DNA from: a virus
Virus genome (UHGV): UHGV-0286546
Length of the DNA: 64,000 nucleotides
Strand: one strand, 5' to 3'
In this document: positions 4,717-48,302 of the stretch, piece after piece
Layout of the letters: each line of letters opens with the position of its first letter
How positions within the stretch are numbered: position 1 is the stretch's first letter
Notes under the pieces: generated by a model
The model's input: the letters and a program-made list of their open reading frames with translations, nothing else
What the model was told of the DNA's origin: nothing
Database searches by the model: none
Translations under genes and position numbers: made by a program

Positions 4717-4728
4717 CAAAGGATAGGA

Positions 4729-4977: not shown

Positions 4978-5057
4978 AATTTTATTTATTTTTTGTTTTA
5001 CATTTATATTCTATATTATATAAATATATTGTTTTTAAGTCAATATAAAAATTTTAT

Positions 5058-5131
5058 TCGGGGGTCGTCTAGTGGCAGGACATGAGATTTTGGCTCTCAT
5101 AACGTTGGTTCGAATCCAGCCCCCCGAACCA
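5058..5131 (+). tRNA. tRNA-Gln (UUG)
   Basis: Acceptor TCGGGGG/CCCCCGA, D stem GTCT/GGAC, anticodon stem TGAGA/TCTCA loop TTTTGGC, T arm GTTGG-TTCGAAT-CCAGC, A+CCA. Confidence 0.85.
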
Positions 5132-5153
5132 AAAATTGAAAGGAAAAGAAAAA

Positions 5154-5380
5154 TGAAGTTATATGATAGTGGAATTATTTTAGGTAGTGTAATTGCATTT
5201 ATGATATATGGAATAGGGTATATTATAAATGGAAAAATTAATGAACAGCCTAAAGTAGACTATCAAGAACAAAGAATTCTAAACGAAGGTTATGTAAAAA
5301 CTAATTATACAGAAGATCAAATTTTCTACAGTGATTACCAAGAATGTGTAGAATATAAAGATCATTTTTATTGTTATTAA
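5154..5380 (+). CDS. small membrane protein
   Basis: ATG at 5154 after gaaaggaaaag; listed ORF 5072 starts inside tRNA-Gln and is N-terminally over-extended; one hydrophobic helix. Confidence 0.45.
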
Positions 5381-5394
5381 TTTAGGAAGTAAAG

Positions 5395-5643
5395 ATGAAA
5401 AAAGTATTGTTAGGCATTTTTATTGTTTTATTGTTAACTGCTTGTGCTCAAGAAAGAGTACCGTACGTTAAAACAGATTGTAGAAATTGTAATTCTCAAT
5501 ATACCGTAAGAAAACCTGTAGAAATTGTATACGAAGAGATTACTTATACTACTGTTTATGAACCAAGAACATATGCTAAGACAAAAAGAGTAACGGTTCC
5601 ATATAAAAATTGTGAAAAAACTTATAAAAAATACTGTCGTTAA
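5395..5643 (+). CDS. putative lipoprotein
   Basis: Signal peptide with lipobox LLTAC; SD ggaag. Confidence 0.6.
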   Translation: MKKVLLGIFIVLLLTACAQERVPYVKTDCRNCNSQYTVRKPVEIVYEEITYTTVYEPRTYAKTKRVTVPYKNCEKTYKKYCR

Positions 5644-5730
5644 TAAAAAATTGCTTTACAAATAAAAATTTTATGATAATATAAATATATAAATTAAAAA
5701 AGAAGGGTTCTATAAACTATGATGAAAATG
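5641..5730 (+). promoter_or_regulatory. conserved promoter cassette TTGCTTTACA-N16-TAATAT plus leader (copy 1 of 2)
   Basis: ~80% identical to 11101-11190; followed by 19-codon ORF and terminator. Confidence 0.45.
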
Positions 5731-5810
5731 ATGTTTAAATATATTAGATTTTATAAACAGCTCAATCGAGGTGTATAATTTTCTATTACGTTTTTATCAG
5801 ATAGAATTTA

Positions 5811-5848
5811 AAAGCCTCGAGAATAAGAATCGAGGCTTTATTATTATA
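5811..5848 (+). terminator. rho-independent terminator
   Basis: gcctcga-loop-tcgaggc followed by T-rich run. Confidence 0.55.
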
Positions 5849-5855
5849 AGTTTTT

Positions 5856-5940
5856 GGTTGGGTCGCATAGCGGCAATTGCTGGAGACTGTAAATCTCTTC
5901 TCTTCGGAGTTCGTAGGTTCGAGTCCTACCCCAACCACCA
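5856..5940 (+). tRNA. tRNA-Tyr (GUA)
   Basis: Acceptor GGTTGGG/CCCAACC, anticodon loop CTGTAAA, long variable arm CTCTTCGGAG, T arm GTAGG-TTCGAGT-CCTAC, A+CCA. Confidence 0.85.
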
Positions 5941-5945
5941 TTTAT

Positions 5946-6023
5946 AGAGAGGTAACTCAGTTGGTCTAGAGTATTCGCCTGATATGCGAAGAGTCGTGAG
6001 TTCGAGTCTCACCCTCTCTACCA
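5946..6023 (+). tRNA. tRNA-Ile (GAU)
   Basis: Acceptor AGAGAGG/CCTCTCT, D arm ACTC..GAGT, anticodon stem TTCGC/GCGAA loop CTGATAT, T arm GTGAG-TTCGAGT-CTCAC, A+CCA. Confidence 0.85.
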
Positions 6024-6042
6024 AATTATTTAGGGAGCATTT

Positions 6043-6600
6043 TTGTTGAGTTATAACAGATTAAAAAATTTTAGAAAATTACGAAAACTAGCTATATTAC
6101 AAGGATTTGGCGGAAAATGTCAATGTTGTGGTTATAACAAATGCGTTCAAGCTTTAGAATTTCATCATTTAAATTGTAATGATAAAGAATTTTCTATTAG
6201 TACCATTATGAATAAAAACTGGAACGAAATAAAAAATGAATTAAAAAAATGTATTTGTGTGTGTGCCAATTGTCATAGAGAAATACACAATAATTTATTA
6301 GAAATTGATGTTAATAAACAATATTTTGACGAAAACGCCGTACAAGATTATGAATGTGCTATAAATAAGGTAACAAAATATAGCAAATGTCCAATTTGCG
6401 GAGCATTAAAACCAGAATATAACAAATTTTGTTCTCGAAAATGTGCCGCGAAATCAAGAGATAGAGTAAATTGGGAACAATACGAAAGTTTAGTTTATAT
6501 TATTGATAATAAAATTGAATCTATTAATAGTATTGCTTCTAAATTAAATATTTCTTGGCAAGCTGTAAAGAAAAGATATAAAAAATTAAAATCGCAATAA
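6043..6600 (+). CDS. HNH homing endonuclease
   Basis: HNH motif EFHHL...CANCHREIH with flanking CxxC pairs; TTG start after SD tagggag; inserted between tRNA genes. Confidence 0.8.
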   Translation: MLSYNRLKNFRKLRKLAILQGFGGKCQCCGYNKCVQALEFHHLNCNDKEFSISTIMNKNWNEIKNELKKCICVCANCHREIHNNLLEIDVNKQYFDENAVQDYECAINKVTKYSKCPICGALKPEYNKFCSRKCAAKSRDRVNWEQYESLVYIIDNKIESINSIASKLNISWQAVKKRYKKLKSQ

Positions 6601-6617
6601 AGATTTGAATTATTTAT

Positions 6618-6693
6618 GGTCATGTAGCTCAGTTAGTAGAGCACCAGACTGAAAATCTGGGTGTCGTTGGGGCGGAACCAACCGTGACCACCA
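6618..6693 (+). tRNA. tRNA-Phe (GAA) with non-canonical T-loop GGCGGAA
   Basis: Acceptor GGTCATG/CGTGACC, D arm TAGCTCAGTTAGTAGAGCA, anticodon stem CCAGA/TCTGG loop CTGAAAA, T stem GTTGG/CCAAC, A+CCA. Confidence 0.75.
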
Positions 6694-6699
6694 TTTATT

Positions 6700-6775
6700 G
6701 GAAGTATAGCTCAGCCGGTAGAGCAACGAGCTTTTAACTCGTGGGTCATGGGTTCGAATCCCTTTGCTTCCACCA
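6700..6775 (+). tRNA. tRNA-Lys (UUU)
   Basis: Acceptor GGAAGTA/TGCTTCC, anticodon stem ACGAG/CTCGT loop CTTTTAA, T-loop TTCGAAT, A+CCA. Confidence 0.8.
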
Positions 6776-6783
6776 ATTTTTAT

Positions 6784-6860
6784 GGCGATGTAGTTCAGCC
6801 GGTTAGAACGTATCCCTCATAAGGATAAGGTCACTTGTTCGAGTCAAGTCATCGCTACCA
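6784..6860 (+). tRNA. tRNA-Met/Ile2 (CAU), elongator type
   Basis: Acceptor GGCGATG/CATCGCT, anticodon stem TATCC/GGATA loop CTCATAA, T arm ACTTG-TTCGAGT-CAAGT, A+CCA. Confidence 0.8.
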
Positions 6861-6913
6861 TCTTTTTAAATTTTAAGTTCTAAACATAAAATGATTATTA
6901 CGGAGAAATTTTT

Positions 6914-7390
6914 ATGCCTAGAATTATAAAACATACAGATAAAGTTTTAGTAGAACGCTGTGAAAGTTATTGGTTAAGTCTACGACATGTAAATAGTTAT
7001 TTACCAGGGATAGAAATTTTTAAAAATCCGTCAAAGTCTGATCTTTTAAAAATGTTAAGACAAACATCTACAATACGAGGATTTGCTGATCACGAAGATG
7101 TAATTGTATGGAATGGAGAAGAAGAAATTCATGGTACAATCGAAAAGGCAATACGACAAAAGTATGGTGATGATACTTTTTCAGACGGTAAGCATAGGAT
7201 AGCAAGATTTCAAGTATTTAGAGATAAAAATAACCTTTTAGGATTTGAAGACAATGAGGGTCCCGATACAGATGAGGTAACGAATGAGTTAAAACAAACA
7301 CTTTTGGGTAACCCAAATTTCACTAAACTCTTTTCGAAAGAAGAAATACTAAATGCACAATCTCATCACATTATAGACGATGAAGAATAA
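6914..7390 (+). CDS. hypothetical protein; paralog of 10557..11102 and 47718..48302 (NPSK...IRGFAD...DVIVWNG domain) lacking the shared N-terminal leader
   Basis: Shared motifs ERCES, NPSK, TIRGFADHEDVIVWNG, KQTLLGNPNFTKLFSKEEILNAQSH. Confidence 0.6.
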   Translation: MPRIIKHTDKVLVERCESYWLSLRHVNSYLPGIEIFKNPSKSDLLKMLRQTSTIRGFADHEDVIVWNGEEEIHGTIEKAIRQKYGDDTFSDGKHRIARFQVFRDKNNLLGFEDNEGPDTDEVTNELKQTLLGNPNFTKLFSKEEILNAQSHHIIDDEE

Positions 7391-7452
7391 ATAAAATTGT
7401 TTTACTTTTATTAAAAATAATATATATTTATTTTAAATAGCTTTGCATTAGA

Positions 7453-7529
7453 GGATTCTTAGCTCAATTGGATAGAGCAATAGCCTTCTAAGCTATGGGT
7501 TGCAAGTTCGAATCTTGCAGAATCCGCCA
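7453..7529 (+). tRNA. tRNA-Arg (UCU)
   Basis: Acceptor GGATTCT/AGAATCC, anticodon stem ATAGC/GCTAT loop CTTCTAA, T arm TGCAA-GTTCGAATC-TTGCA, G+CCA then T7 run. Confidence 0.85.
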
Positions 7530-7548
7530 TTTTTTTATTATTTTCTGT

Positions 7549-7580
7549 TTTACATTTTTTAATTATGGTGTATTTTATTA
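7549..7580 (+). promoter_or_regulatory. sigma70-like promoter GTTTTACA-N17-TATTTT
   Basis: -35 TTTACA at 7549; -10-like TATTTT. Confidence 0.35.
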
Positions 7581-7589
7581 ATATCTGTT

Positions 7590-7830
7590 ATGGCGGAAGT
7601 ATAGACGCTAGATGGAGTGTGGAGAGAGGAAGTGAATCCGGAATAGCTTACCTCGCAGATGAAAAGAATACGGCCGAAAGCGGTGAATAATCGCAATCGG
7701 AGAAACCGTAGAACGGAGGCTCAGACGGGATGCAAACTAACCAATTAAGTCACAATTCGCGAAGTGATGTCATCGAGCCCAAAACAAAGACCACACGTTC
7801 TAAAGGGTTGGTATTTTCTTAATAGTATAT
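7590..7830. ncRNA. candidate structured ncRNA (GC-rich ORF-free island)
   Basis: ~240 nt with GC clearly above genome background, no ORF, downstream of promoter-like element and tRNA-Arg; analogous position to T4 small stable RNAs. Confidence 0.3.
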
Positions 7831-7887
7831 CATGGCTTTAGATAACAGATATTAACAAAGTATATAGTGAAAGGAATGAATAAATAG

Positions 7888-8295
7888 ATGTTGGAAAAAA
7901 TAAAAGAAAAAATTAAAGATTGGTGGTTTTCTAGAGATAGTATTTTTAATTTTTATTTCTCAATATCTTCATCTGGTATTTTTATAAATTTTACTATATT
8001 AGATTACGGTATAGATTTAGATATCACTATTCCGTGTATTCTTCCTAGCTTCTATATTAAAACCTTTTATGAAAAAGAACAAGAAATCTTTACAAATAAA
8101 TTTTGGGGTGAACAGTTTACATTTGTTTCTGATTTGCGTACAGAATTTGGTACAGGTTGGTTTGTTAATCAAGATCATGCTGGTTTTAGTGCTCAAGCGT
8201 CAATTTTAGGTTTTAATTATAGTTATGAATTGAGAGATACAAGGCATTGGGATTACTTTAAAAATTGCTGGAAGAGCTGTTCAGAAGATAAATAA
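7888..8295 (+). CDS. hypothetical protein
   Basis: ORF with SD gaaaggaatg. Confidence 0.5.
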   Translation: MLEKIKEKIKDWWFSRDSIFNFYFSISSSGIFINFTILDYGIDLDITIPCILPSFYIKTFYEKEQEIFTNKFWGEQFTFVSDLRTEFGTGWFVNQDHAGFSAQASILGFNYSYELRDTRHWDYFKNCWKSCSEDK

Positions 8296-8350
8296 ATAAG
8301 ACATTCTAAAGTTCTAAGTATATATTTGGTATATTTAGGACTTTTTATTT

Positions 8351-9106
8351 ATGAGTAGATTCAGAACAATTGTAGAAAATATCATAAAAACTTTTACAGA
8401 AGACGCGTTCTCAGACAGAGATAGATATAAAGAGGCAATTGATGTATATCTTAATGTATTAGATAAAATGGAACCGTCTCTAAATACAGATAAAATTATT
8501 ACAGATAGCGCAGAATGTGTCAGTTTACAAGTAGATACACCTCATGGTCCTCTAATTGTTAGTGTTTCTCTAGATAAAGATGTACATAATGCCGGTGTAT
8601 ATTATCCAGAATACAACGCTATTGAACTTAACATACACGGTATAATGGATTTGAGTGATGAAACTATAAACATGACAGATCCGATTACCGGTGAAGAAAA
8701 TGTTACAGGTATAAATGCTAAATACTTATATAAAATTTTATCTTCTCGTGCCGTTCAAGATACATTTATTCACGAATATACCCATTTTATAGATGATAAA
8801 ACAAAGTACTCCATGAAAAAGCAAGCAGATACATATAAAAATATAGATTATTTCAATAAACCTTACGAAAGAAATGCGTTTTATATTGCTTGGTTAAATA
8901 AAATCGTTTCATATACCTATAAAAAATATGGTAAAATAATGAAAGAGTTGACACCAGATGAACGATTAAATTTTTTAAGAAATGCTTGGAAAGAAGACGA
9001 AGAATTTGTAGAATATTATAATAAACTTGAACCTGCTGCAAAGAAAAGATTTATGTCAAGATTATATAATTATTTTAGTACTGATTTCTGGTCGGATGCT
9101 GCATAA
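8351..9106 (+). CDS. leader-family protein 1 (MSRFRTIVEN...), putative zinc metallopeptidase (HEYTH)
   Basis: Conserved N-terminal leader; HExxH motif TFIHEYTHFID. Confidence 0.65.
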   Translation: MSRFRTIVENIIKTFTEDAFSDRDRYKEAIDVYLNVLDKMEPSLNTDKIITDSAECVSLQVDTPHGPLIVSVSLDKDVHNAGVYYPEYNAIELNIHGIMDLSDETINMTDPITGEENVTGINAKYLYKILSSRAVQDTFIHEYTHFIDDKTKYSMKKQADTYKNIDYFNKPYERNAFYIAWLNKIVSYTYKKYGKIMKELTPDERLNFLRNAWKEDEEFVEYYNKLEPAAKKRFMSRLYNYFSTDFWSDAA

Positions 9107-9123
9107 CAAAAGGTAGATTTAAA

Positions 9124-9708
9124 ATGAGTAAAATAAGAACAATTATTGAAAATATCCTTTATGAAGGTGATAAAAAAATATTTGATAAAGAATCTGGATA
9201 CAATAGCTCTAAAGATGAGTTATATATTTATGATTTACTTAAAAAGAAATGGCCAGATGTTAAAATGAGCTATACCAGAGATGATTTTATTAATCCAGAA
9301 ACTCATCGTCATTTTCAATTAGATTTTTACGTACCTTCTGAAAATATGGGAATACAGGTAAATAAACATTGGAAACACGGTAGAAGAGTATATGATCCAT
9401 CTGATCCAAATTGTCAAAAAGATGTTCGTTGGTTAAAAAATAAAGGTGGAGATTTTTATAACAAAGTTTTGCATACCTGGACCGAATTAGATCCTATTAA
9501 ACGAGAAGTTGCAAAGCAAATAGGTATGAAATACGTAGAAATCTTTAATTTAGACGAATTTAATACTTGGTACAATAATCCAGAATTAACATACGAAGAA
9601 TATAAACAGGCTCCAGATTCTTTACAATACGACAGTGATGAATATTTTGCTGCAAAAGCTAATAATCGTGATATTTATGGTAATGATTCCGATCCGTTAG
9701 GTGCATAA
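9124..9708 (+). CDS. leader-family protein 2 (MSKIRTIIEN...); possible Vsr/DUF559-like nuclease fold
   Basis: Leader; segment FQLDFYVPSENMGIQVN resembles DUF559 core. Confidence 0.55.
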   Translation: MSKIRTIIENILYEGDKKIFDKESGYNSSKDELYIYDLLKKKWPDVKMSYTRDDFINPETHRHFQLDFYVPSENMGIQVNKHWKHGRRVYDPSDPNCQKDVRWLKNKGGDFYNKVLHTWTELDPIKREVAKQIGMKYVEIFNLDEFNTWYNNPELTYEEYKQAPDSLQYDSDEYFAAKANNRDIYGNDSDPLGA

Positions 9709-9774
9709 TTACGGTTTTACTTTTATTTTAATATAAATTATTATATATAAAATTTAAAATAGATAGGTATAAGA

Positions 9775-10530
9775 ATGAGTAAGTTTAAAACCATCGTAGA
9801 AAATGCATTATATGAAGTTGGAGCATTGCCTTTTCCAAAAAATATTCAAGTATATGCTAAAAAAGAAAAAGTAAATTTATTTGAAATTAAATATTTACGA
9901 AAAGATGGTAAATTGGATGAACCAGGTGGAATTTGTTATGCTAAAACTGGAATTTGGAAAGATATCCGTGAAAATGAAAATGCTTTTATACGCACGCAAT
10001 TAGATGAAAAATTTAGACCAGATCAAGGCAATTTTAGTAAATATCGTGGTGGTATGATTGTATTTGCTCTGAGTGTCAATACTGTCATTGATAAATTGAA
10101 TTATAATCAATTAGTTGCAGAAATTAAAAAGATTTGGTATACCTTAATAAACAATACCTTTAAAAATAAAATGATTAAAGGTGTAGTTAATTCTATGAAA
10201 AATACTTATGCTAACATTGAAGATGCAGAGATCGGAGGTATTACAATAGGTAATAACTTTAAAGGCATGTATTTTGATGGTAATAAAGTATATAATGATA
10301 AATCAACGAGTTTAGAAATAAATGACATTTCTAGTGAGATGTTGTTATTACTAGCTATTGAAATTTGTAAAGCATTTCGTCAAGATAGCGTTTTAATCAA
10401 AGATTTCAATAAAAATAAATTCTTTTTGTGTGATTCTGAAGAAGTAGAAGGCGAAATTCCAGAAGAAAAAATAAAAAACGCTTCTAAAGACTTAGCAAAC
10501 TTAAAGAATGTAAATACAAAAACAAAATAA
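9775..10530 (+). CDS. leader-family protein 3 (MSKFKTIVEN...)
   Basis: Leader conserved at protein and nucleotide level. Confidence 0.6.
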   Translation: MSKFKTIVENALYEVGALPFPKNIQVYAKKEKVNLFEIKYLRKDGKLDEPGGICYAKTGIWKDIRENENAFIRTQLDEKFRPDQGNFSKYRGGMIVFALSVNTVIDKLNYNQLVAEIKKIWYTLINNTFKNKMIKGVVNSMKNTYANIEDAEIGGITIGNNFKGMYFDGNKVYNDKSTSLEINDISSEMLLLLAIEICKAFRQDSVLIKDFNKNKFFLCDSEEVEGEIPEEKIKNASKDLANLKNVNTKTK

Positions 10531-10556
10531 TGTATGATTTAGCAGAAAGTATAATT

Positions 10557-11102
10557 ATGAGTAGATTTAGAACAATTGTTGAAAATGCTATTGCCAAAGT
10601 AAATAAAAAACTTTTAAAAGAACGTTGTGAATCGCTTTTTATAGCACCAATGAGTCTACATAATGATGAGCGAGAAGTAGTAGAAGTACTTTATAATCCT
10701 TCGAAAGCAGAATTCAATAGAGCATTTAGAGAATGGGGTACTATACGAGGACTTGCTGACAATGAAGATGTAATTATTTGGGATGGATATAAAGCTGTTC
10801 ATGATTCAGTAAAAGAACAATTAGAAAAACAGTATGGTGCAACCTTTCCAACTAATTACGGGACATTATGCAGATTTGAAACAACACGCGAATATCCATT
10901 AATGCTCGAAGATGATACAAAACAGTATAGTCATGGTAAAGAATTAGATCCAGTAAAGCAAACCTTATTTAAAAATCCTAACTTTACACGATTATTTTCA
11001 GAAGAGGAAATACTAAATGCTGATTCTCATAATTTTGCTAATGGAGAATTCGGTGAGTTTCAAAATGATCCAGAAATATTAAAAAAGTTTGGATATGATT
11101 AA
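10557..11102 (+). CDS. leader-family protein 4 (MSRFRTIVEN...), NPSK/IRGLAD domain paralog of 6914..7390
   Basis: ATG 10557 after listed upstream extension; paralogy motifs. Confidence 0.6.
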   Translation: MSRFRTIVENAIAKVNKKLLKERCESLFIAPMSLHNDEREVVEVLYNPSKAEFNRAFREWGTIRGLADNEDVIIWDGYKAVHDSVKEQLEKQYGATFPTNYGTLCRFETTREYPLMLEDDTKQYSHGKELDPVKQTLFKNPNFTRLFSEEEILNADSHNFANGEFGEFQNDPEILKKFGYD

Positions 11103-11190
11103 AAATTGCTTTACAGATATAAAATTTTATGATATTGTATAAATATAAAATAAAAAAGAGAGTTCTATAAATTATGATTAATACGAATAT
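11101..11190 (+). promoter_or_regulatory. conserved promoter cassette TTGCTTTACA-N17-TATTGT plus leader (copy 2 of 2)
   Basis: ~80% identical to 5641-5730; followed by 21-codon ORF (11174-11239) and terminator. Confidence 0.45.
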
Positions 11191-11275
11191 TTTACATTGT
11201 TGGTGTCATCATTTACTTCACAGAGGTGTTGATGCTTAGTTATACGTGTTAATTCATAAAATTATTAGTTTCAAG

Positions 11276-11309
11276 CCTCTAGGATAATTACTTTCTAGAG
11301 GTTTTTTTA
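11276..11309 (+). terminator. rho-independent terminator
   Basis: cctctag-loop-ctagagg then T8. Confidence 0.6.
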
Positions 11310-11313
11310 TTAT

Positions 11314-11387
11314 GGACTGTTGGTAGAGTGGTTATACGTTAGTCTGCAAAACTAATTACACAAGTTCGAATCTTGTACAGTCCTCCA
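11314..11387 (+). tRNA. tRNA-Cys (GCA)
   Basis: Acceptor GGACTGT/ACAGTCC, anticodon stem TTAGT/ACTAA loop CTGCAAA, T arm ACAAG-TTCGAAT-CTTGT, T+CCA. Confidence 0.8.
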
Positions 11388-11430
11388 ATTTTACGCATAG
11401 AAGTATATATCAATAAAATGGTCTATTCTT

Positions 11431-11506
11431 GTGTGCGTAGCTTAATTGGTAAAGCGTCGGTTTGTGGTACCGAAGGATACGAGTTCGAATCTCGCTGCTC
11501 ACCCCA
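11431..11506 (+). tRNA. tRNA-His (GUG); no encoded G-1, one U-U mismatch in acceptor
   Basis: Anticodon stem TCGGT/ACCGA loop TTGTGGT, D arm GCTT-AATTGGTA-AAGC, discriminator C + CCA. Confidence 0.7.
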
Positions 11507-11512
11507 CTTTAT

Positions 11513-11586
11513 AGGGACTTAGTTTAATGGTAAAACACTAGTCTCCAAAACTAGATATAGGAGTTCGATTCTCTTAGTCCTTGCCA
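11513..11586 (+). tRNA. tRNA-Trp (CCA)
   Basis: Acceptor AGGGACT/AGTCCTT, D arm GTTT-AATGGTA-AAAC, anticodon stem CTAGT/ACTAG loop CTCCAAA, T-loop TTCGATT, G+CCA. Confidence 0.8.
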
Positions 11587-19990: not shown

Positions 19991-20186
19991 GATTGATATT
20001 ATAAAAGCCTTCTGTGAAATGATAATAGATACTACTGTCATTACATTACTAGGTATCGTGTGTATTCTTCTATTTGTATGCGCCTTCTTATTTTTTCCAT
20101 TTAAAAGTATAAAAGCTTGGTTCGGTACACAAATATATAAAATCGCAGATACTATGGAATACTACTTAACAAAAACTGAATACTAA
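19989..20186 (+). CDS. small membrane protein
   Basis: ORF; hydrophobic core. Confidence 0.45.
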   Translation: MIDIIKAFCEMIIDTTVITLLGIVCILLFVCAFLFFPFKSIKAWFGTQIYKIADTMEYYLTKTEY

Positions 20187-20189
20187 AAC

Positions 20190-20930
20190 ATAACTACTAC
20201 TGAAAGATAAACAAATGAACACTACTGATAAAACATACCTCAAATCAAGAACTAAAACTGAATATAAACTCCTATCCTATATAACAAAAACACTAAACCT
20301 TAACTCAAAAGACTTTAAAATTAAAAAAGCCAAACGTAAAGATAAACCCTCTATGCTAATGTCTTCCATGCCAATTATAACTAACGTCTACAAATTTCTA
20401 AAAAATAATTATAACCTACCAGAACTTACTATATCTACATCATATTATTCAGATACAAAAAAACTACTAAGAAGATCTCATACTGAATATAATGTCCTAC
20501 ACCTCAAAATAAACAATACAGTACAAGATCCTCAAGACATACTAACCCTACTCCGTATTAAAAACTCTATATAACACACAATCTACCTATAGGGGCCATA
20601 CGTATATTACACAACCTACTACGTTAATAACTACGCTAATAGCTACACTAACTCCAACATGGCCCCTCTACATATCCCATAACCATACATACCACACAAC
20701 TTCACCTACAATACCTACAAGGGGCCTTACTTATACCTATACAACATAATACGGACCTACAACTATACTAGCCTATAAACTAACTTTACCTTTGGCCCCT
20801 CTACGAACTCTACGACTAATACTTCCCTTGCTACCTATGTACCCTGCCTTGCTACTTCTGCCTTTCTTTTATTTATCTTAACACTTCCAACGCTTCCCCT
20901 CCTACTGGATTTTATATTGAGCTTATTATT
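20190..20930 (+). repeat. G-depleted (A/C/T) strand-biased tract with four spaced GGGGCC/GGCCCC inverted motifs
   Basis: Top strand nearly G-free for ~750 nt; AGGGGCC at ~20591 and ~20721, GGCCCCTCTAC at ~20661 and ~20804. Confidence 0.6.
20215..20574 (+). CDS. LRIKGY-family small protein (ends ...DILTLLRIKNSI) encoded in G-depleted DNA
   Basis: C-terminal family motif; unusual A/C/T-only codon usage. Confidence 0.5.
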   Translation: MNTTDKTYLKSRTKTEYKLLSYITKTLNLNSKDFKIKKAKRKDKPSMLMSSMPIITNVYKFLKNNYNLPELTISTSYYSDTKKLLRRSHTEYNVLHLKINNTVQDPQDILTLLRIKNSI

Positions 20931-20939
20931 TATATACGT

Positions 20940-20970
20940 AAAGGCCCCATGGCGGGGGGCCCACCATGAG
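20940..20970. repeat. GC-rich palindrome aaggccccatggcggggggcccaccatg
   Basis: ggcccc/ggggcc hairpin with CCATGG; isolated GC island in AT-rich DNA. Confidence 0.5.
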
Positions 20971-20974
20971 ATAA

Positions 20975-21470
20975 TTAAAATATTTTCAATGGTGAATTTT
21001 TTTTATTTCAATGGTGAAAAAAATTTATTATTATAAATATATAATAAATAATAAAAAAGCTTAATTAAAAAAATTTTAATATAAATATAAAAAATACAAG
21101 GTTAAAATTTTTATTTTCAAGGCTAAAATTATTTATTATAATAAATTATAATTTAAAATAAAATTTTACAAAAGCTTTTTATTTTATATAATATGCAAGT
21201 TTGTAAATTTATTTTAAGAAGTAAATTAAAAGCTAATTAAATATAAAGAGCTTCAAGGCTAACTTTTTTGTTTTCAAGGCTTAAAAAATATAATATAATA
21301 AAAAAATTTTAATTAAAATAATAAAAAGCTTCAAGGTTGAAATTTTTGTTTTCAAGGTTCAAATTATTTATTATTATAAAAATATAATAAATAAAAAATT
21401 ATAAAAGCTTTTTATTTTAATAATAATATGCAAGTTTATAAGTTTATTTATTAAATATAAAAAAAGAATC
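20975..21470. repeat. AT-rich tandem/direct repeat region (ttttcaa(g/t)g(c/g)t.aa units; two ~130-nt higher-order repeats ending TATAATATGCAAGTTT)
   Basis: Repeated units visible at ~20985/21007, 21100-21230 and 21330-21460; no ORFs. Confidence 0.55.
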
Positions 21471-41064: not shown

Positions 41065-41351
41065 CCCTTTCTTTTCTTCTGTTTTTCGTTTTTCTTTTTA
41101 TATATTTTTTCTTTTAACTTTTATTATTCTTTTCTTTAATATTTATTATTATTAATTTTAAATTTTATTATTTTTTTATTTTAACTTTAAATTTTTATTT
41201 TCATTTAACATTTAATATTTTTTATTATTACTTTTTTTAATACCCTTACTTTATTTAAGAGAAGTGAAAGAAGAAAACAAAGAAGAAAGCGAGAGAAGAT
41301 GCAAACACAGTTTAGAACCAGGTACTACGTAAAACCCAAATTATAAATACC

Positions 41352-41395
41352 AAGTTACGCACAGCTTTTTGCAAGTTACGCACAGTTTTTTAATC
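41352..41395 (+). repeat. direct repeat caagttacgcacag(c)tttt x2
   Basis: Two adjacent near-identical 18-nt units. Confidence 0.5.
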
Positions 41396-41704: not shown

Positions 41705-41795
41705 ATCTTTGGAAGTGTGTATTCGCATAATCTATCCTTTTATCCTTTTTTGGGCGCAAATAGATCTCAGAATACACACTTCTTTTTTATTTATC
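41705..41795 (+). repeat. hairpin element copy 1 (GTGTGTATTCGCATAATCT...AGATCTCAGAATACACAC + T-run)
   Basis: 13-bp stem enclosing conserved TTCGCATAATCT and AGATCTCAGAATA; second copy at 42241-42322 with different but complementary stem. Confidence 0.55.
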
Positions 41796-42240: not shown

Positions 42241-42322
42241 AGGTATATATTCGCATAATCTTCTTAAACATGTTCGTTGGCCCGTTCTGTACTAGAAGAT
42301 CTCAGAATATATACCTTTTTTC
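42241..42322 (+). repeat. hairpin element copy 2 (GGTATATATTCGCATAATCT...AGATCTCAGAATATATACC + T6)
   Basis: 12-bp stem; abuts stop codon of minus-strand gene 42323..43300. Confidence 0.55.
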
Positions 42323-44187: not shown

Positions 44188-45771
44188 TTAGGCGTGAGCT
44201 TGGTTGAAGTTAGCAATAGCACCACGTACCAAGTACTCAGGCTTATTGATGAACAAATCATAGAAAGACATAGCGCCTTTGTGATTCTTCAAATTAGGAG
44301 CTTGGAAAGTAGGTGTGAAATAGAGCGGGATCCACTCAGCTAAAACAATTGCCGAATCACCTAACTGGAATCCTTTGAAACCGAAGACAACCTGATCAAC
44401 CGGTAATGTCTTAGTATAAGGAACAGCGATAACAGCAATAGTACCGTCACGCAATGTACCAGCTAAGTAAGGTCCAATCGGTTTCTTAGCTTCAGGAGCT
44501 GCTTTGAAACCTTCGATTTGTTCTACGATTGTTAAACCTTGACGAGCAGAAACAATCATGAATTCAACTGTACCACGACCAGCAACTTCTTGGATAATAC
44601 CACGAGCACTAGAAATAGTAGTTGTATAAGCAGAATATCTCTGTTGTAAGGTTAAGTTAGCACCGTTTGCAGCACAATCAAATGTCAAATCAGCGTTCGG
44701 AGTAGCAGCAGCATATACACTGTGGATCAATGACAAATCACGTTCCCAACGAATAGTACCAGCAATTTGGTTAGCAATCAATTCATCAGTGTCAATTGCT
44801 AAGTGAGCGTTCATTACCAAACCAGCTGCAACACTGTAAGAACTCATTAACGGGTGCTGCTTAGCTAAAATAGGCTGATTAGGAATATCGAACTGAATCT
44901 TACGAATCAAATCAACATCTGTTTCAACATCAACAGCAGCTTCGAAACTCAGCATAGCATTCTCAGCAATAGCATCAGCATACATAGTAGCATCCAATTT
45001 CAATGTAGCTACACCAGTCTGAGCATTAACTGTACCAGAAACACCACGACCAATTACATTGTATGCACCACTGTTAACACCATCCAACTGCGCAGAACCA
45101 TTACCATAGTCACGTGCAATCTCTTTACCTGCTAAACGAACGATGAACGAACCAGCACGTACTTTAACTGTAGCATCAGAAGGCAATGCAGCAGACGGAT
45201 TAGCAGTTACATCAGCAGTAGCCTGAACATCTGTATACCCAATGAACTCAGAAGAATACGTACCATCTGTCGGATTCTCAAATACAATGTCACCAGCTTC
45301 AACACCAGCAGCGTCTTGAGAATAACGTGTTTTGATGATGAAGATTTGGCCAGACTGACGATCTAAAGCTTGAATATCAGCAATGTAGTTTGCTACCATT
45401 TGCGGATAAAATACATTAACGATATCAACGACTTTAGGAGTCAAGCTTGCAACACCAGGGCTGAGCAAAGAAACAGCAGAAGTAGAAGCGTTACCGCCAA
45501 AATCTTCGTGCAGGATATTGCGACCTGTGTAAGGAGTATCTGGCTGTTGAGCGATGTATTCAGCAGTATTTTCTAAGAGCTGAACCATAGTAGCGGCTTG
45601 GTATTTAGCTTCTTTAGAGTCAGATTCCAGAGCTTTTACGAGAGCCGGGCAGCGTTTGCCGAGAGTAGATTCACTGAGAACTTCTGCAGCGTGAGCGATA
45701 CCTTTATTGATTCTTTCGCTACGGGCTTTAGCAACCAGTGACTTATTTTCAACTTTGGTTAAGATAGACAT
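44188..45771 (-). CDS. major capsid protein, T4 gp23 family
   Basis: 527 aa; segment SGQIFIIKTRYSQDAAGVEAG and C-terminal GFKGFQ resemble T4 gp23 (from memory); Ala/Gly/Thr-rich, GC-richer codon usage; N-terminal LTKVEN putative protease site; SD aggaaa. Confidence 0.7.
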   Translation of the reverse strand: MSILTKVENKSLVAKARSERINKGIAHAAEVLSESTLGKRCPALVKALESDSKEAKYQAATMVQLLENTAEYIAQQPDTPYTGRNILHEDFGGNASTSAVSLLSPGVASLTPKVVDIVNVFYPQMVANYIADIQALDRQSGQIFIIKTRYSQDAAGVEAGDIVFENPTDGTYSSEFIGYTDVQATADVTANPSAALPSDATVKVRAGSFIVRLAGKEIARDYGNGSAQLDGVNSGAYNVIGRGVSGTVNAQTGVATLKLDATMYADAIAENAMLSFEAAVDVETDVDLIRKIQFDIPNQPILAKQHPLMSSYSVAAGLVMNAHLAIDTDELIANQIAGTIRWERDLSLIHSVYAAATPNADLTFDCAANGANLTLQQRYSAYTTTISSARGIIQEVAGRGTVEFMIVSARQGLTIVEQIEGFKAAPEAKKPIGPYLAGTLRDGTIAVIAVPYTKTLPVDQVVFGFKGFQLGDSAIVLAEWIPLYFTPTFQAPNLKNHKGAMSFYDLFINKPEYLVRGAIANFNQAHA

Positions 45772-45839
45772 AGTAGTTTAATTTCCTATATTAAGTTTTA
45801 AGTTAAACGTTTATATATTTTTAGTTTTTTGTATAGATA

Positions 45840-46620
45840 GTATGTATTTATATCTATGTCCAGAGTAGTGTAAAGATCCCGTAGGATGGGAAACTTAGTA
45901 TTAGTTATTTAATTAGAACAGTATATTTATGATAAAGTAGTGATTTGGAAGAATTTTTTTGTAAATTTTTTTATTTTAGTTGTATATGTAGGTATATATG
46001 TGGAGTATTTGGGTTAATGTAAGTATGTTATCGTATATATGAGTAGTGTAGTATATAGTAGATAAAAGGTAACGTGATGAGATTGTATGTAGTTATATGG
46101 TGTATGTGTATATATAGGTTGTAGGAATTTTTAGGAAATGTGTCGGCGTAGGTAGATTGTGATATATAGTGGGTATGTATGATTGTAGATAATTGGTTTT
46201 ACGTTTACTGTATTACATGGTATAGTAATGGTAATAATGAAATGAATGATATGAGAGGATGAGCTACGTATGCTGAAAAGAGAATATAGAGAGGTATTAG
46301 GTACAGTATTAAGGAATGATATAGCGGAAGCACTTGACTTATTTACTGGTATTTGGTCAAGTGGTATATATAGAGTTGGTGTAGATAAAGGTGTTGAAAA
46401 AAGATATAATATAGATATAGTATGTAGTAAAGACCAGTATAAAAGAGTTAGAGAGTATGTAGAAGAGGCATATAATTTTAATGAAGAGAAGTTAGTATTC
46501 GATGAAAGTTATTTTGATAGTGCGCATTATTGTTATTCAGTTAGTGAAGAGAAGTTAATGCAGATTTATAGTTTACTTAGAATTAAAGGATATACGATGA
46601 ATTAATCCTAATGTATGGTA
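45840..46620 (+). repeat. C-depleted (G/T/A) alternating purine-pyrimidine tract spanning divergent promoter region and gene 46270..46605
   Basis: Top strand almost C-free; runs of TG/TA alternation (gtatgtgtatatatagg etc.). Confidence 0.55.
46270..46605 (+). CDS. LRIKGY-family small protein (array B, first member) encoded in C-depleted DNA
   Basis: C-terminal ...LMQIYSLLRIKGYTMN. Confidence 0.55.
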   Translation: MLKREYREVLGTVLRNDIAEALDLFTGIWSSGIYRVGVDKGVEKRYNIDIVCSKDQYKRVREYVEEAYNFNEEKLVFDESYFDSAHYCYSVSEEKLMQIYSLLRIKGYTMN

Positions 46621-46704
46621 TATATTGTTTATTATAGATTCCTTTGATACTTAGTTGTATTGAAGGAATTTTTTTTACTATTTTGTTGTAATGGTAATAT
46701 TTGT

Positions 46705-46733
46705 TTTACATTTGAATAGTATTTTGGTATAAT
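46705..46733 (+). promoter_or_regulatory. sigma70-like promoter GTTTTACA-N17-TATAAT
   Basis: Exact consensus hexamers with 17-nt spacer. Confidence 0.55.
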
Positions 46734-46782
46734 ATATATAAAATGTAATGTTATAATGAAATAAAGAATTAGGAATGTATAT

Positions 46783-47526
46783 ATGAAAACAAGCATGTCA
46801 GTTTTTAGGCGTTTTGAAGTACTAGATAAATATTATACTGGTTATTCTACTTCTAAACAAATTATGAAGCACAAGGTTGAATTAGAAAGATTTAAGGGCT
46901 TATCTTTAGAAGAAAAATTGGGTAGTAAAATAAATGATTTGTTGTTACCTACTTGTGTATTAACTATTTTAGATTCCATTGGAGTATATTTATATTTAGA
47001 TCTTTATACAATTAATTTTGAAGTAAATGAATATAACTATCATAGATTAAAAACAAAAAAGATGGCATTGGGTATATTAAAAGCACATTTAGAAGCAATT
47101 GGATTAGGATTTGATATAGATGAAATAGATGATGAGATGATTAAGCGTATTCGTAATAAATATAATGATATGTATTCGAGTTTAAAGATATTAGAAAACT
47201 TTGGATTTGAAATTATTAAAAGTTGTAGATATGATGAATATGTTAATGCAGGATATAATACTAACTTATATAATTCTGTTGCAGCAGTTTTATTAAGTTA
47301 CCCTGCATTATTAGACTTTGTTGACTTAAAAGAAAGACAAGGAAAAAACGATAGTATATTTCCAGAATTAGTGGTTAAAAATACAGACGTTGATATGTTT
47401 ACTACTTTATGCAGGATTATGGATGTTAATTTCAAAGTTTGGTATGGCAGCAGAGGTAATAGAAAGTATCCACATAATACATATTTTGATGTGTTTTTAC
47501 CTAAGCGCTTAAAAAATGACATTTGA
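46783..47526 (+). CDS. hypothetical protein
   Basis: SD attaggaatgtatat. Confidence 0.55.
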   Translation: MKTSMSVFRRFEVLDKYYTGYSTSKQIMKHKVELERFKGLSLEEKLGSKINDLLLPTCVLTILDSIGVYLYLDLYTINFEVNEYNYHRLKTKKMALGILKAHLEAIGLGFDIDEIDDEMIKRIRNKYNDMYSSLKILENFGFEIIKSCRYDEYVNAGYNTNLYNSVAAVLLSYPALLDFVDLKERQGKNDSIFPELVVKNTDVDMFTTLCRIMDVNFKVWYGSRGNRKYPHNTYFDVFLPKRLKNDI

Positions 47527-47717: not shown

Positions 47718-48302
47718 TTAGGCAACATTTACTGATAATCCGGTTTTTCTTAACCAAGTATTAAAATCGTCTTTTTCATGAGGCGGTTTGTCATCGTAAC
47801 AGTATTTATCAGCTTGTTCTTTTGTTAAACCGTAATTTTTTATAGTCCATTCTCTAGGTTGATATTCACTACTACAACTCTGATATGCGTCATAAAAGTT
47901 TTGTATATCGAAGAAAGATAAATTATTTTGTGGAATCATTTCTTTATGTGCGTCTATTATTTCTTGTAAGCGTGCATTTGGTGTTCCTCTTACTTGTAGA
48001 TTTCCATTATTATCTTCATCAAACATTGTATGTACTTCACTATCGGTTAATTCACCATATTCTTCCAATGCACTTATCAAATTATCATGTAACCAAACAT
48101 CAGCATCAACAACATATATATTTTTATCAGTAGCAATTCCTCGTATTGAATTAAATCTTGTATTACTTTTAAATGAAAAATATTCATAAGGACTAGGATT
48201 TTTTAGTACAGTTAATATTTCATTTTCATCAAACCAAGTAGGTACTCTTAATATTTTAGTTTCTAACAATATACCTTCTACTATCTTTCTAAACTTTGAC
48301 AT
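47718..48302 (-). CDS. leader-family protein 5 (MSKFRKIVEG...), NPSP/IRGIAT domain paralog
   Basis: Leader and NPS..IRG..VVDA motifs shared with 6914 and 10557; only minus-strand gene in this region. Confidence 0.6.
   Translation of the reverse strand: MSKFRKIVEGILLETKILRVPTWFDENEILTVLKNPSPYEYFSFKSNTRFNSIRGIATDKNIYVVDADVWLHDNLISALEEYGELTDSEVHTMFDEDNNGNLQVRGTPNARLQEIIDAHKEMIPQNNLSFFDIQNFYDAYQSCSSEYQPREWTIKNYGLTKEQADKYCYDDKPPHEKDDFNTWLRKTGLSVNVA

What the first reader, a model, noticed from the sequence alone, without database searches (positions are those of the whole stretch)
45772..46620. C-depleted, alternating purine-pyrimidine (TG/TA) tract between the capsid gene and gene array B; compositional mirror of the G-less tract
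Top strand ~45840-46620 is almost C-free (G/T/A only) with long TG/TA alternations (gtatgtgtatatatagg, gtgtagtatatagtag). These are Z-DNA or cruciform prone and easily melted. It spans the divergent intergenic region upstream of the gp23-like gene and the whole first array B gene. Together with the G-less tract at 20190-20930 (which also covers an LRIKGY-family gene) this gives two ~0.75-kb single-base-depleted islands of opposite sense. This is hard to explain by codon bias alone.
Basis: seen in the sequence. Interest (0 to 1): 0.6.

Follow-up and report, generated by a model that had tools for sequence, protein, structure and literature searches.

The report
Strand-specific cytosine-free island beside capsid gene
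Next to the capsid gene of an uncultured ~240-kb gut/rumen phage, about 1.3 kb of DNA almost excludes cytosine from one strand, and a mirror island 25 kb away almost excludes guanine. The pattern is real and kept in relatives; it is probably a direction-dependent signal for transcription termination factor Rho, not Z-DNA, but that is an inference.

Summary
The tract is the most C-depleted segment of the 64-kb window: 4.1% C against 13.0% on average. Its maximal-segment score is 46.9, against 8.6 ± 1.3 in shuffles. It runs from 45787 to about 47250, further than reported. The G-poor tract at 20158-20930 is its counterpart.

The bias covers three intergenic regions and two genes, at all three codon positions, so codon bias does not explain it. 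In other strains the non-coding spacer changes in sequence and in length (387-873 nt) but stays at 1-3% C. ORF111 (C-poor) and ORF119 (G-poor) are paralogues on the same strand, recoded in opposite directions.

The structural reading is not supported. The longest purine-pyrimidine run is 17 nt and TA-rich. There are no cruciform arms. Duplex stability is unexceptional apart from one 100-nt T-rich patch.

The property the two islands share is that RNA read from the G-poor strand is C-rich, rich in YC dinucleotides and the least structured RNA in the window. Each island is the largest C>G bubble on its strand.

Best guess (confidence 0.3): the islands act as directional Rho filters or insulators upstream of two convergent transcription units. 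The main rival is local strand-asymmetric mutation. No transcript data exist.

The parts
45772..45857 (-). Upstream region or 5' UTR of the capsid (MCP) gene, already C-poor on the + strand. It contains TATAAATA (45845-45852, minus strand).
   Evidence: MCP ORF 44188-45771(-) matches Pfam Gp23 at E 7e-23. This segment is 97-100% identical in strains L016, L018 and L019. TATAAATA hit.
45859..45868 (+). Invariant 10-mer TCCAGARTAG (CTAYTCTGGA on the MCP strand). It is followed in the closer relatives by GATCCCGTAGGAKGGGAA.
   Evidence: Present 87-294 nt from the MCP start in 16 of 17 relatives whose flanks do not align. It is the only exact copy in the window. Its role is unknown.
45869..46000 (.). 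Conserved non-coding segment, T-rich and nearly C-free. It holds the start of the 112-nt C-free run.
   Evidence: The overlapping block measured (45886-46000) is 100% identical in L016 and L019 and 95% in L018, which is better conserved than ORF111. Composition.
46001..46197 (.). Hypervariable C-free spacer (C about 2%, G 25-31%, T 37-42%). It holds the 17-nt alternating run at 46100-46116.
   Evidence: Its 46001-46130 block is the least conserved measured (87-96% identity, with 22-nt and 9-nt indels), yet it is C-free in every strain. No ORF, no tandem array, no relic coding and no Rfam match.
46198..46226 (+). Sigma-70-type promoter-like site TTTACG-17-TATAGT with an extended -10 TG, in front of ORF111. 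The Shine-Dalgarno sequence GAGAGGA is at 46253-46259.
   Evidence: The site is conserved in L016, L018, L019, L022 and L025. It is paralogous to the module at 46660-46783.
46270..46605 (+). ORF111, a 111-aa member of the small-protein family ending LLRIKGY. It is the most C-poor gene in the window (5.4% C, skew +0.63).
   Evidence: (rank 1 of 128 ORFs). Homologues are intact in 7 strains. The AlphaFold2 model has pLDDT 84.6.
46636..46681 (+). Intrinsic-terminator-like hairpin plus T run after ORF111.
   Evidence: 15 pairs followed by TTTTTACTAT.
46705..46733 (+). Strong promoter-like site TTTACA-17-TATAAT (11 of 12 matches, with TG) in front of gene 46783.
46783..47526 (+). 247-aa gene. It is C-poor (skew 0.3-0.7) up to about 47250, where the island fades.
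20215..20574 (+). Mirror island A: ORF119, a 119-aa paralogue of ORF111 ending LLRIKNSI. It is encoded on the G-poor strand (G 6%, skew -0.56).
   Evidence: It is a real gene: indels are in frame, and codon-position differences are 85/22/95 across 4 strains. Homology to ORF111: BLASTP E 0.025 plus family alignment A4.
20575..20930 (+). Mirror island A: G-poor, C-rich (31% C) non-coding spacer. Conserved 6-mers GGGGCC and GGCCCC punctuate it at 20592, 20661, 20721 and 20794.
   Evidence: Only 66-70% identical between strains, with a length of about 350-600 nt, and always G-poor. Long-range stems fold with z -3.1 and -1.9.
20943..20971 (.). GC-rich hairpin that closes island A. The AT-rich cluster of tandem promoter-like repeats (20977-21450) follows it.
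   Evidence: (-18.9 kcal/mol on the minus strand).

Best explanation
Each island is a stretch in which one DNA strand has been almost cleared of G. That strand is the minus strand in island B (this tract) and the plus strand in island A.

RNA copied with the sense of the G-poor strand is C-rich, dense in YC dinucleotides and essentially unable to fold. That is the textbook loading substrate (rut, 'C>G bubble') of the bacterial termination factor Rho. RNA of the opposite sense has almost no YC dinucleotides and should be invisible to Rho.

So each island would work as a one-way filter for transcription. Island B lets rightward transcripts (ORF111, gene 46783) pass. It should stop untranslated leftward or antisense transcripts before they reach the capsid-gene control region. 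Island A should end the rightward operon that finishes with ORF119, before the cluster of tandem promoters at about 21.0-21.5 kb.

The two islands mirror each other because the two transcription units they precede converge (rightward from about 21.6 kb, leftward from 45.77 kb).

Shown here: the composition, its conservation, the folding and YC statistics, and the gene layout. Inferred: that such transcripts exist, that the unknown host has Rho, and that Rho acts here.
For: 1. The bias is regional and strand-specific, not gene-specific. It covers three intergenic regions and two genes in B, and one gene plus its 356-nt downstream region in A.
2. Composition is maintained while sequence is not. 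The B spacer is 387-873 nt long in different strains and largely unalignable (L023), yet always 1-3% C. The A spacer is 66-70% identical, with large indels, and always G-poor.
3. With the 78-nt C>G-bubble method of Nadiras et al. (PMC6144790), the largest bubble on the + strand is 20106-20974 (869 nt, mean C-G 18%). The largest on the - strand is 45718-47018 (1301 nt, 15.8%).
4. 150-nt windows of RNA with the sense of the G-poor strand are the least structured in the whole window: MFE 0 to -6 kcal/mol against means of -19 and -23. RNA of the opposite sense folds normally.
5. YC dinucleotides in B: 6 in 720 nt on + and 90 on -. In A: 85 on +.
6. No intrinsic terminator is predicted for leftward transcripts between the minus-strand gene 47718-48302 and the capsid gene. 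None is predicted for rightward transcripts between ORF119 and the promoter cluster.
7. In about 12 of 17 related loci, the largest C>G bubble on the capsid-gene strand abuts the capsid gene start, whether the underlying DNA is coding or not.
8. Paralogues ORF111 and ORF119 are recoded in opposite directions on the same strand. The pressure therefore acts on nucleic acid and depends on position, not on the protein or its mRNA sense.
9. The nearest cultured capsid relatives infect Pseudomonas and Xanthomonas, and a 99%-identical copy sits in a Succinivibrionaceae bin. This is a weak hint of a gammaproteobacterial, Rho-dependent host.
Against: - There are no transcript data, and no evidence that Rho acts here. 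The host is unknown, and the MAG labels are unreliable.
- A rut site needs roughly 80 nt. The islands are 0.9-1.3 kb and impose a heavy cost on two proteins.
- ORF119 is translated, so ribosomes should shield most of island A from Rho.
- Strain L019 keeps island B although it has no minus-strand gene to its right within 10 kb. Leftward read-in there would have to come from spurious promoters.
- Antisense strands of all genes in this phage are already C>G. B may simply be the extreme of a general trend.
- The block between the islands is not demonstrably 'late': PHROGs found only an ATPase and an HNH endonuclease.
- A purely mutational origin predicts the same composition.
Confidence: 0.3

Rival explanations
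1. Neutral by-product of local, strand-asymmetric mutation or repair. One strand of each island would spend more time single-stranded, for example as the non-template strand of a very heavily transcribed unit, as the displaced strand at a replication start, or in the underwound DNA between divergent promoters. It would then accumulate C-to-T and A-to-G deaminations and drift to a G+T-rich, C-poor equilibrium. No function need be attached to the composition.
For: - The B spacer differs from the window average exactly as two deamination transitions predict: C -11 and T +10, A -6 and G +7.5 percentage points.
- The bias is strongest in the least constrained DNA and weaker in coding DNA.
- It decays gradually rightwards from promoter-like sites.
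- It affects all codon positions and overrides protein sequence.
- The fast-evolving spacers keep the composition, as a mutational equilibrium would.
Against: - Polarised singleton substitutions among four strains show no raised C-to-T rate per C in the island (0.09, against 0.14-0.16 in flanking + genes). The C>T: T>C per-site ratio is 4.5, where about 8 is needed for the observed C/T ratio. Counts are small (6 and 11 events).
- Island A is G-poor on the sense strand of ORF119 and its operon. That is the opposite of what sense transcription would produce, so a dominant antisense transcript or a non-transcriptional cause must be assumed.
- The A spacer is C-rich (31%) without the matching A/T shift.
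- The strongest part of B lies upstream of the conserved ORF111 promoter and may not be transcribed rightwards.
- The boundaries of A are sharp.
Confidence: 0.25
2. R-loop-forming zone or replication origin. A promoter would fire into a G-rich non-template strand, the transcript would stay hybridised, and the hybrid would prime DNA synthesis (as at T4 oriF/oriG, ColE1 and the mitochondrial H-strand origin) or promote recombination at the variable gene array.
For: - GC skew of +0.8 to +0.9 lies downstream of promoter-like or TA-rich elements.
- For island A read leftwards, the RNA:DNA-minus-DNA:DNA nearest-neighbour energy is the most favourable of the whole minus strand (-0.12 kcal/mol per nt, 0.1 percentile). 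An AT-rich repeat region lies alongside it.
- Gene gain and loss happens right at the head of array B.
Against: - For this tract (B, read rightwards) the same calculation is neutral (+0.026 kcal/mol per nt, 57th percentile), because the RNA would be 42% U.
- There are no G clusters.
- The two islands do not share this property.
- No replication-initiator gene or iteron was identified, and the 'iterons' next to A look like tandem promoters.
- The nearest-neighbour parameters were recalled from the literature, not taken from a tool.
Confidence: 0.08
3. The functional product is the C-free sense RNA. ORF111 mRNA and its flanks, and a hypothetical leftward RNA across island A, would avoid cytosine to escape a C-dependent attack. 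Candidates are a host toxin endoribonuclease whose site contains C (MazF-type ACA/UACAU and similar), an RNA cytidine deaminase, or Rho acting on long untranslated leaders.
For: - ORF111 and gene 46783 are the first genes of a rightward unit with strong promoter-like sites and are the most C-poor genes in the window.
- There are only 6 YC dinucleotides in 720 nt of sense RNA.
- In distant relatives (L013, L002, L030) the first genes divergent from the capsid gene are likewise extremely C-poor on their coding strand.
Against: - The most C-free DNA (45900-46197) lies upstream of the conserved ORF111 promoter.
- ORF119, a paralogue, has the opposite bias in its own mRNA.
- C-free RNA has ordinary predicted structure, so no folding benefit is apparent.
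- No leftward transcript across A is known.
Confidence: 0.12
4. Non-B DNA. The alternating TG/TA tract would flip to Z-DNA, extrude a cruciform or melt under the negative supercoiling generated behind the strongly transcribed capsid gene, and so act as a torsional sink or regulatory switch.
For: - The tract has the highest purine-pyrimidine alternation in the window and its longest alternating run (17 nt).
- It lies between divergent promoters, where negative supercoils collect (twin-domain model, established knowledge).
- A 100-nt T-rich patch is at the 99th percentile for duplex instability.
Against: - The alternation is only 0.55-0.60 of steps, and the runs are short and TA-rich.
- There are no inverted repeats.
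- Island A shows neither alternation (0.507) nor low stability.
- Far less stable DNA lies elsewhere in the window.
- This idea does not explain the recoding of genes or the G-poor island.
Confidence: 0.04

Closest known systems
Rho utilisation (rut) regions / 'C>G bubbles' of Rho-dependent terminators (e.g. lambda tR1; model of Nadiras et al. 2018, PMC6144790)
   Same: The regions are C-rich, G-poor, YC-rich and unstructured when read in one direction, without interruption. They lie where an operon ends (A), or on the antisense and untranslated side of genes (B). No canonical intrinsic terminator is nearby. Island A even has hairpins separating C-rich segments, as boxB separates rutA and rutB.
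   Different: They are ten times longer than a rut site (0.9-1.3 kb) and exclude G almost totally. They run through translated genes and have reshaped their proteins. Function, host and Rho dependence are all untested.
Transcription- or replication-associated strand compositional asymmetry (Szybalski / purine loading; deamination skew as in bacterial leading strands and vertebrate mitochondrial DNA)
   Same: There is a G+T-rich strand facing an A+C-rich strand. The bias cuts across coding and non-coding DNA and is oriented with the local genes in island B. This phage shows a general coding-strand skew of about +0.2.
   Different: The amplitude (skew 0.8-0.9) and the sharp, kilobase-scale localisation are far beyond genome-wide skews. 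Island A runs against the direction of its own gene. The present-day substitution spectrum shows no clear hypermutation.
Synthetic 'G-less cassette' transcription templates
   Same: It is a few hundred base pairs in which the transcript of one strand lacks one nucleotide almost entirely.
   Different: The cassette is a laboratory construct with no natural function. Here the depletion is natural, conserved across strains and partly coding.
R-loop origins (T4 oriF/oriG, ColE1 RNA II)
   Same: A promoter-like element is followed by a G-rich non-template strand, and an AT-rich region lies next to island A.
   Different: Island B's transcript would be U-rich and is not predicted to form a stable hybrid. 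No origin function is shown.

Membership tests
Z-DNA-forming tract | Long uninterrupted purine-pyrimidine alternation rich in CG or TG/CA steps (about 12 bp or more of CG, or about 24 bp or more of TG) | tested here: not met
   The longest alternating run is 17 nt (GTGTATGTGTATATATA), and half of its steps are TA. The alternation fraction is only 0.55-0.60. The length thresholds come from established knowledge, not from a tool.
Cruciform-forming inverted repeat | Two closely spaced, highly complementary arms of about 10 bp or more | tested here: not met
   No such pair lies within 45772-46620. The inverted repeats found are 70-90% complementary and 47-1352 nt apart.
Rho-dependent terminator (rut region) | Uninterrupted C>G region of about 78 nt or more on the non-template strand | tested here: met
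   These are the largest bubbles of either strand: 45718-47018 (-) and 20106-20974 (+). The criterion comes from PMC6144790.
Rho-dependent terminator (rut region) | Unstructured RNA rich in suitably spaced YC dinucleotides | tested here: met
   MFE is 0 to -6 kcal/mol per 150 nt, the weakest in the window. YC density is 12-12.5 per 100 nt, against 5.8 for the window.
Rho-dependent terminator (rut region) | The region is transcribed in that sense and is not covered by ribosomes | tested here: inconclusive
   B read leftwards is antisense or non-coding, and there is an upstream minus-strand gene with no predicted intrinsic terminator. Strain L019 lacks that gene. In A, half of the island is the translated ORF119. 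No RNA data exist.
Rho-dependent terminator (rut region) | Termination depends on Rho (bicyclomycin-sensitive 3' ends; Rho present in the host) | not testable with these tools
   The host is unknown, with only weak hints of a gammaproteobacterial host.
R-loop replication origin | The transcript forms an RNA:DNA hybrid more stable than the duplex it replaces | tested here: not met
   B spacer read rightwards gives +0.026 kcal/mol per nt (57th percentile). The feature is met only for island A read leftwards (-0.09 to -0.12).
T4-type late promoter | TATAAATA at -10 of late genes, recurrent upstream of late genes | tested here: inconclusive
   One copy faces the capsid gene at 45845-45852. The motif is not enriched (30 found, 22.5 expected) and is not conserved in distant relatives.
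Known structured RNA family (Rfam 15) | Covariance-model match | tested here: not met
   There is no match at gathering score in the window other than tRNAs, and none at E <= 1 in either island.
Mutational (deamination) skew | Raised C>T and A>G rate on the depleted strand relative to the flanks | tested here: inconclusive
   C>T is 0.09 per C in the island against 0.14-0.16 in the flanks. T>C is 0.020 against 0.05. Only 62 singleton substitutions were available.

The most novel reading that the evidence does not exclude
Selection on nucleic-acid composition alone would have built kilobase-scale, near-single-base-excluded 'transcriptional diodes' that insulate phage transcription units. It would be strong enough to recode two paralogous proteins in opposite directions (E/G/V/R-rich against K/T/N/L-rich). 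Alternatively, the C-free and G-free RNAs would be an evasion device against a base-specific host nuclease, deaminase or nucleotide-depletion defence. Either would be a previously undescribed layer of phage genome design that can be read directly from the sequence.
Probability: 0.12. Interest if true: 0.75.

Novelty: new variant of a known kind. Interest (0 to 1): 0.5.

Why it matters
If the islands are directional Rho signals, operon boundaries and temporal insulation in uncultured jumbo phages could be read from base composition alone. The pair ORF111/ORF119 would be a clean natural example of nucleotide-level selection overriding protein sequence.

If they are mutational, they mark sites of prolonged strand exposure, such as origins or hyper-transcribed units, in a phage that cannot yet be grown.

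In either case, the same skew scan can be run on the complete 235-249-kb relatives.

Tried and rejected
- DNA homology between the two islands. There is none beyond shared composition.
- Relic or decayed gene in the spacers. tblastx and blastn against all fetched loci match only the orthologous spacers.
- Tandem-repeat or simple-sequence origin. Only trivial 2-copy repeats were found.
- Binding-site array. TTGTAG/TGTAG is over-represented in both spacers but is not enriched window-wide and has few copies per island. I treat it as a by-product of composition.
- Known RNA families. None matched.
- Phage-database DNA match. None.
- IMG/VR relatives of ORF111 and of gene 21624. None.
- Exact look-up of the window's own proteins. 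Not on record.
- Function of ORF111. No Pfam hit, and the confident AlphaFold2 model has no PDB match at E < 1e-3.
- Host assignment from MAG labels. The labels are contradictory: Succinivibrionaceae, 'Bacilli', Gastranaerophilales, Lachnospiraceae.
- 'Late structural block' between the islands. PHROGs does not support it.
- Similarity of the island-A border (TCCAGTAGG) to the capsid-gene motif. It is too short to weigh.
- Literature searches for a prior description. None was found.
Full report
**What the window is.** The window is 30% G+C. It carries a gp23-type major capsid protein (MCP) gene at 44188-45771 on the minus strand (Pfam Gp23, E 7e-23). The nearest cultured relatives of this MCP are only 34-39% identical (Pseudomonas phage QdP_Psa3, Xanthomonas phage phiXF1). 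Proteins identical or near-identical to the small gene next to the MCP occur on metagenomic contigs of 235-480 kb from gut and rumen samples. This is therefore an uncultured jumbo phage of about 240 kb. The host is unknown.

**Check of the observation.** The tract is real and extreme.
- 45772-46620 contains 40 C in 849 nt (4.7%), against a window mean of 13.0%. The lowest 750-nt window of all starts at 45881 with 4.1% C.
- The longest C-free run of the window (112 nt, 45920-46031) and three more of the eight longest lie here.
- The maximal-scoring C-depleted segment is 45787-47248, with score 46.9. 200 shuffles give 8.6 +/- 1.3 with a maximum of 13.8.
- The island begins exactly at the MCP start codon. 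It is strongest (skew +0.8 to +0.9) at 45900-46250, stays at 0.5-0.8 through ORF111, and fades only near 47250 inside the next gene. It is thus longer than reported.
- G+C content is unchanged. G rises to 24-31% and T to 37-50%, while C falls to 1-7%.
- The G-poor tract is equally significant. Its best G-depleted segment starts at 20158 with score 40.1, and the G-poor, C-rich part is 20158-20930.
- Purine-pyrimidine alternation is also truly enriched: 0.55-0.60 of steps against 0.479 +/- 0.025. The longest alternating run of the window, 17 nt, is at 46100-46116.

**Anatomy of island B.** From left to right, the island contains these parts.
1. The MCP upstream region, with a TATAAATA on the MCP strand at 45845-45852.
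2. An invariant 10-mer, TCCAGARTAG, at 45859-45868.
3. A conserved T-rich segment that runs to about 46000.
4. A hypervariable C-free spacer at 46001-46197.
5. A conserved sigma-70-type promoter-like site, TTTACG-17-TATAGT with an upstream TG, at 46198-46226, followed by a strong ribosome-binding site.
6. ORF111 at 46270-46605.
7. A terminator-like hairpin at 46636-46671.
8. A second strong promoter-like site at 46705-46733.
9. A 247-aa gene at 46783-47526.

ORF111 is the most skewed of 128 ORFs (+0.63). The three intergenic regions of the island have skews of 0.70, 0.59 and 0.48, while all other intergenic regions lie between -0.33 and +0.5, apart from one 68-nt outlier. In ORF111, C is depleted at codon positions 1, 2 and 3 (5, 8 and 3%, against 12, 16 and 10% in other genes). 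Codon choice therefore cannot be the cause, and the amino-acid composition itself has been bent.

**Anatomy of island A.**
- ORF119 (20215-20574, + strand) has only 6% G: 11, 4 and 3% at the three codon positions, against 30, 13 and 12% in other genes.
- A 356-nt non-coding stretch with 31% C follows. Its few G's sit in four conserved 6-mers, GGGGCC and GGCCCC.
- A GC-rich hairpin follows at 20943-20971.
- Next comes an AT-rich region with four tandem promoter-like repeats.
- ORF119 is a real gene. In four strains its indels are in frame, and differences by codon position are 85, 22 and 95.
- ORF119 is a paralogue of ORF111. The BLASTP E-value is 0.025 over the C-terminal half, and both share the motifs V..[YF][LV]...YN[FL].E and LLRIK in the family alignment.
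- Two paralogues on the same strand have thus been recoded in opposite directions.

**Relatives.** In close strains the first 230 nt next to the MCP are 95-100% identical. The spacer at 46001-46130 is the fastest-evolving part (87-96% identity, with 22-nt and 9-nt indels), and it stays C-free.
- L023 has 873 nt of non-coding DNA at this place. It is mostly unalignable with the window and has 3.1% C. L022 and L025 have 4.7% and 2.7% C.
- L019 and L023 carry an extra, equally C-poor gene of 219-221 aa. It is inserted exactly between two copies of the ribosome-binding-site sequence.
- The island-A spacer is 66-70% identical between strains, varies from about 350 to 600 nt, and is always G-poor.
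- Among more distant phages (MCP 56-92% identical), an island of |skew| >= 0.6 abuts the MCP gene in L013 and L002. L030 has a 200-nt peak of +0.77 there. In these loci the island is coding. In about 12 of 17 loci, the largest C>G bubble of the MCP strand lies directly upstream of the MCP gene. L004, L011, L015 and L031 lack it.
- Composition and position are therefore conserved, and sequence is not.

**Tests of the structural reading.**
- The longest alternating run is 17 nt and half of its steps are TA. By the published B-Z energetics this is well short of what flips under physiological supercoiling. This is my inference from established values; no Z-Hunt run was available.
- There are no cruciform-grade inverted repeats.
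- Duplex stability of the tract is at the 77th-90th percentile. Only a 100-nt T-rich patch (45900-45999) is extreme. Island A is average. The really unstable DNA is at 21000-21450 and near 41130.
- Non-B DNA also cannot explain the recoded genes or island A.

**What the two islands share.**
- I folded every 150-nt window of both strands. RNA with the sense of the C-poor strand folds normally (B: mean -21.3 kcal/mol, 56th percentile).
- RNA with the sense of the G-poor strand is the least structured that the window can encode. B read leftwards gives 0 to -6 kcal/mol, ranking 1, 2 and 4 on that strand. A read rightwards gives 0 to -5 kcal/mol, ranking 1, 3, 4 and 5.
- With the 78-nt C>G-bubble criterion for Rho loading sites (PMC6144790), the largest bubble on each strand is one of the islands: 20106-20974 on + and 45718-47018 on -.
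- YC dinucleotides, which Rho's primary binding site contacts, number 6 in 720 nt of rightward RNA from B and 90 in leftward RNA. A has 85 in rightward RNA.
- No intrinsic terminator is predicted where these transcripts would have to stop.
- The mirror arrangement fits the gene map. A rightward unit starts at the promoter cluster near 21.0-21.5 kb, and a leftward unit starts at the MCP. The two converge near 41-42 kb. Each island lies just upstream of one of them, with its G-poor sense pointing into that unit.

**Most likely mechanism.** I therefore favour a direction-dependent Rho signal.
- Island A would end the operon that finishes with ORF119.
- Island B would stop leftward or antisense transcripts before they reach the MCP control region. 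It would be transparent to the rightward transcripts of ORF111 and its neighbour.
- The steps shown are composition, conservation, predicted lack of structure, YC density, absence of predicted intrinsic terminators, and layout.
- The steps inferred are that the transcripts exist, that Rho acts on them, and that the host has Rho.
- The weaknesses are the size (ten times a rut site), translation of ORF119, strain L019 lacking the upstream minus-strand gene, and the fact that all antisense strands in this phage are already C>G.
- Confidence is 0.3.

**Rivals.**
1. Local strand-asymmetric mutation. The B spacer departs from the average exactly as C-to-T plus A-to-G deamination would predict. However, polarised singletons show no raised C-to-T rate (0.09 per C, against 0.14-0.16 in the flanks). 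T-to-C is about 2.5-fold lower. The counts are small. Island A also runs against the sense of its own operon.
2. R-loop origin. The energetics are favourable for A read leftwards (0.1 percentile) but neutral for B (57th percentile), using nearest-neighbour values recalled from the literature.
3. C-free sense RNA as an evasion device. This is attractive for ORF111 and for the C-poor first genes of L013, L002 and L030. However, the most C-free DNA lies upstream of the conserved ORF111 promoter, and the paralogue ORF119 has the opposite bias.
4. Z-DNA or cruciform, as discussed above.

**Comparison with the known, and novelty.** GC skew tied to transcription, and C>G bubbles as Rho signals, are both known. 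The unusual points here are these:
- the amplitude, with near-exclusion of one base;
- the sharp kilobase scale;
- the persistence of composition through complete sequence turnover;
- the opposite recoding of two paralogues.

I found no prior description. I rate it a new variant of a known kind. It is moderately interesting and fully testable once transcripts can be mapped.

Noticed in passing
window 45859-45868 (+); same motif in L001-L033: TCCAGARTAG is invariant 87-294 nt upstream of the capsid gene start in 16 of 17 relatives (MCP identity down to 56%) whose flanks are unalignable. It is unique in the window. It is probably a capsid-gene-specific regulatory site or 5'-UTR element.
   Followed up: partly
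window 20977-21450: Four tandem ~78-nt promoter-like units (TTTTCA/TTTACA-16/17-TATAAT), each with paired TTCAAGG(C/T)T boxes 21 nt apart, lie in DNA of 8-18% G+C. Contigs of two relatives (L026, L028) end here. This may be an early promoter cluster, an operator array or an origin.
   Followed up: partly
window 20592-20597, 20661-20666, 20721-20726, 20794-20799, 20943-20971: Conserved GGGGCC/GGCCCC 6-mers close two ~65-nt G-free loops, and a terminal GC hairpin follows. The 6-mers are kept in all strains while the loops between them turn over.
   Followed up: partly
L019 9342-10007; L023 945-1604 (corresponds to window ~46250): An extra 219-221-aa gene is inserted precisely between two copies of the ribosome-binding-site sequence ATGAGAGGAT in front of ORF111. 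This suggests cassette gain or loss by recombination at repeated translation-start modules.
   Followed up: partly
window 46270-46605: Among 7 strains, 81% of differing codons in ORF111 are non-synonymous, which suggests near-neutral or diversifying evolution, yet the ORF stays intact in stop-rich sequence. The AlphaFold2 model is confident (pLDDT 84.6), is alpha/beta, and has no solved relative at E < 1e-3.
   Followed up: partly
window 41711-41790 and 42241-42322 (+): Two paralogous ~75-nt hairpins are each followed by a T run. They share a conserved inner core (TATTCGCATAATCT...AGATCTCAGAATA), and the outer stem covaries between the copies. Folding z-scores are -7.1 and -6.1. They may be unusual terminators or small RNAs at the convergent junction.
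   Followed up: partly
window 41065-41300: A 170-nt G-free, T-rich run (the longest G-free run of the window) is followed by a purine-rich AGAAG-type tract that is partly complementary to its start. Duplicated 'caagttacgcacag' copies lie at about 41353-41385.
   Followed up: no
L030 (JAZNQD010000009.1) and L033 (JAFZWP010000001.1): Contigs of 245-249 kb labelled 'MAG: Bacilli bacterium' in the genome collection carry this phage's capsid gene (69-92% identical). They look like complete phage genomes filed as bacterial bins.
   Followed up: no
window 2563-11586: There are twelve tRNA genes in three clusters on the + strand.
   Followed up: no
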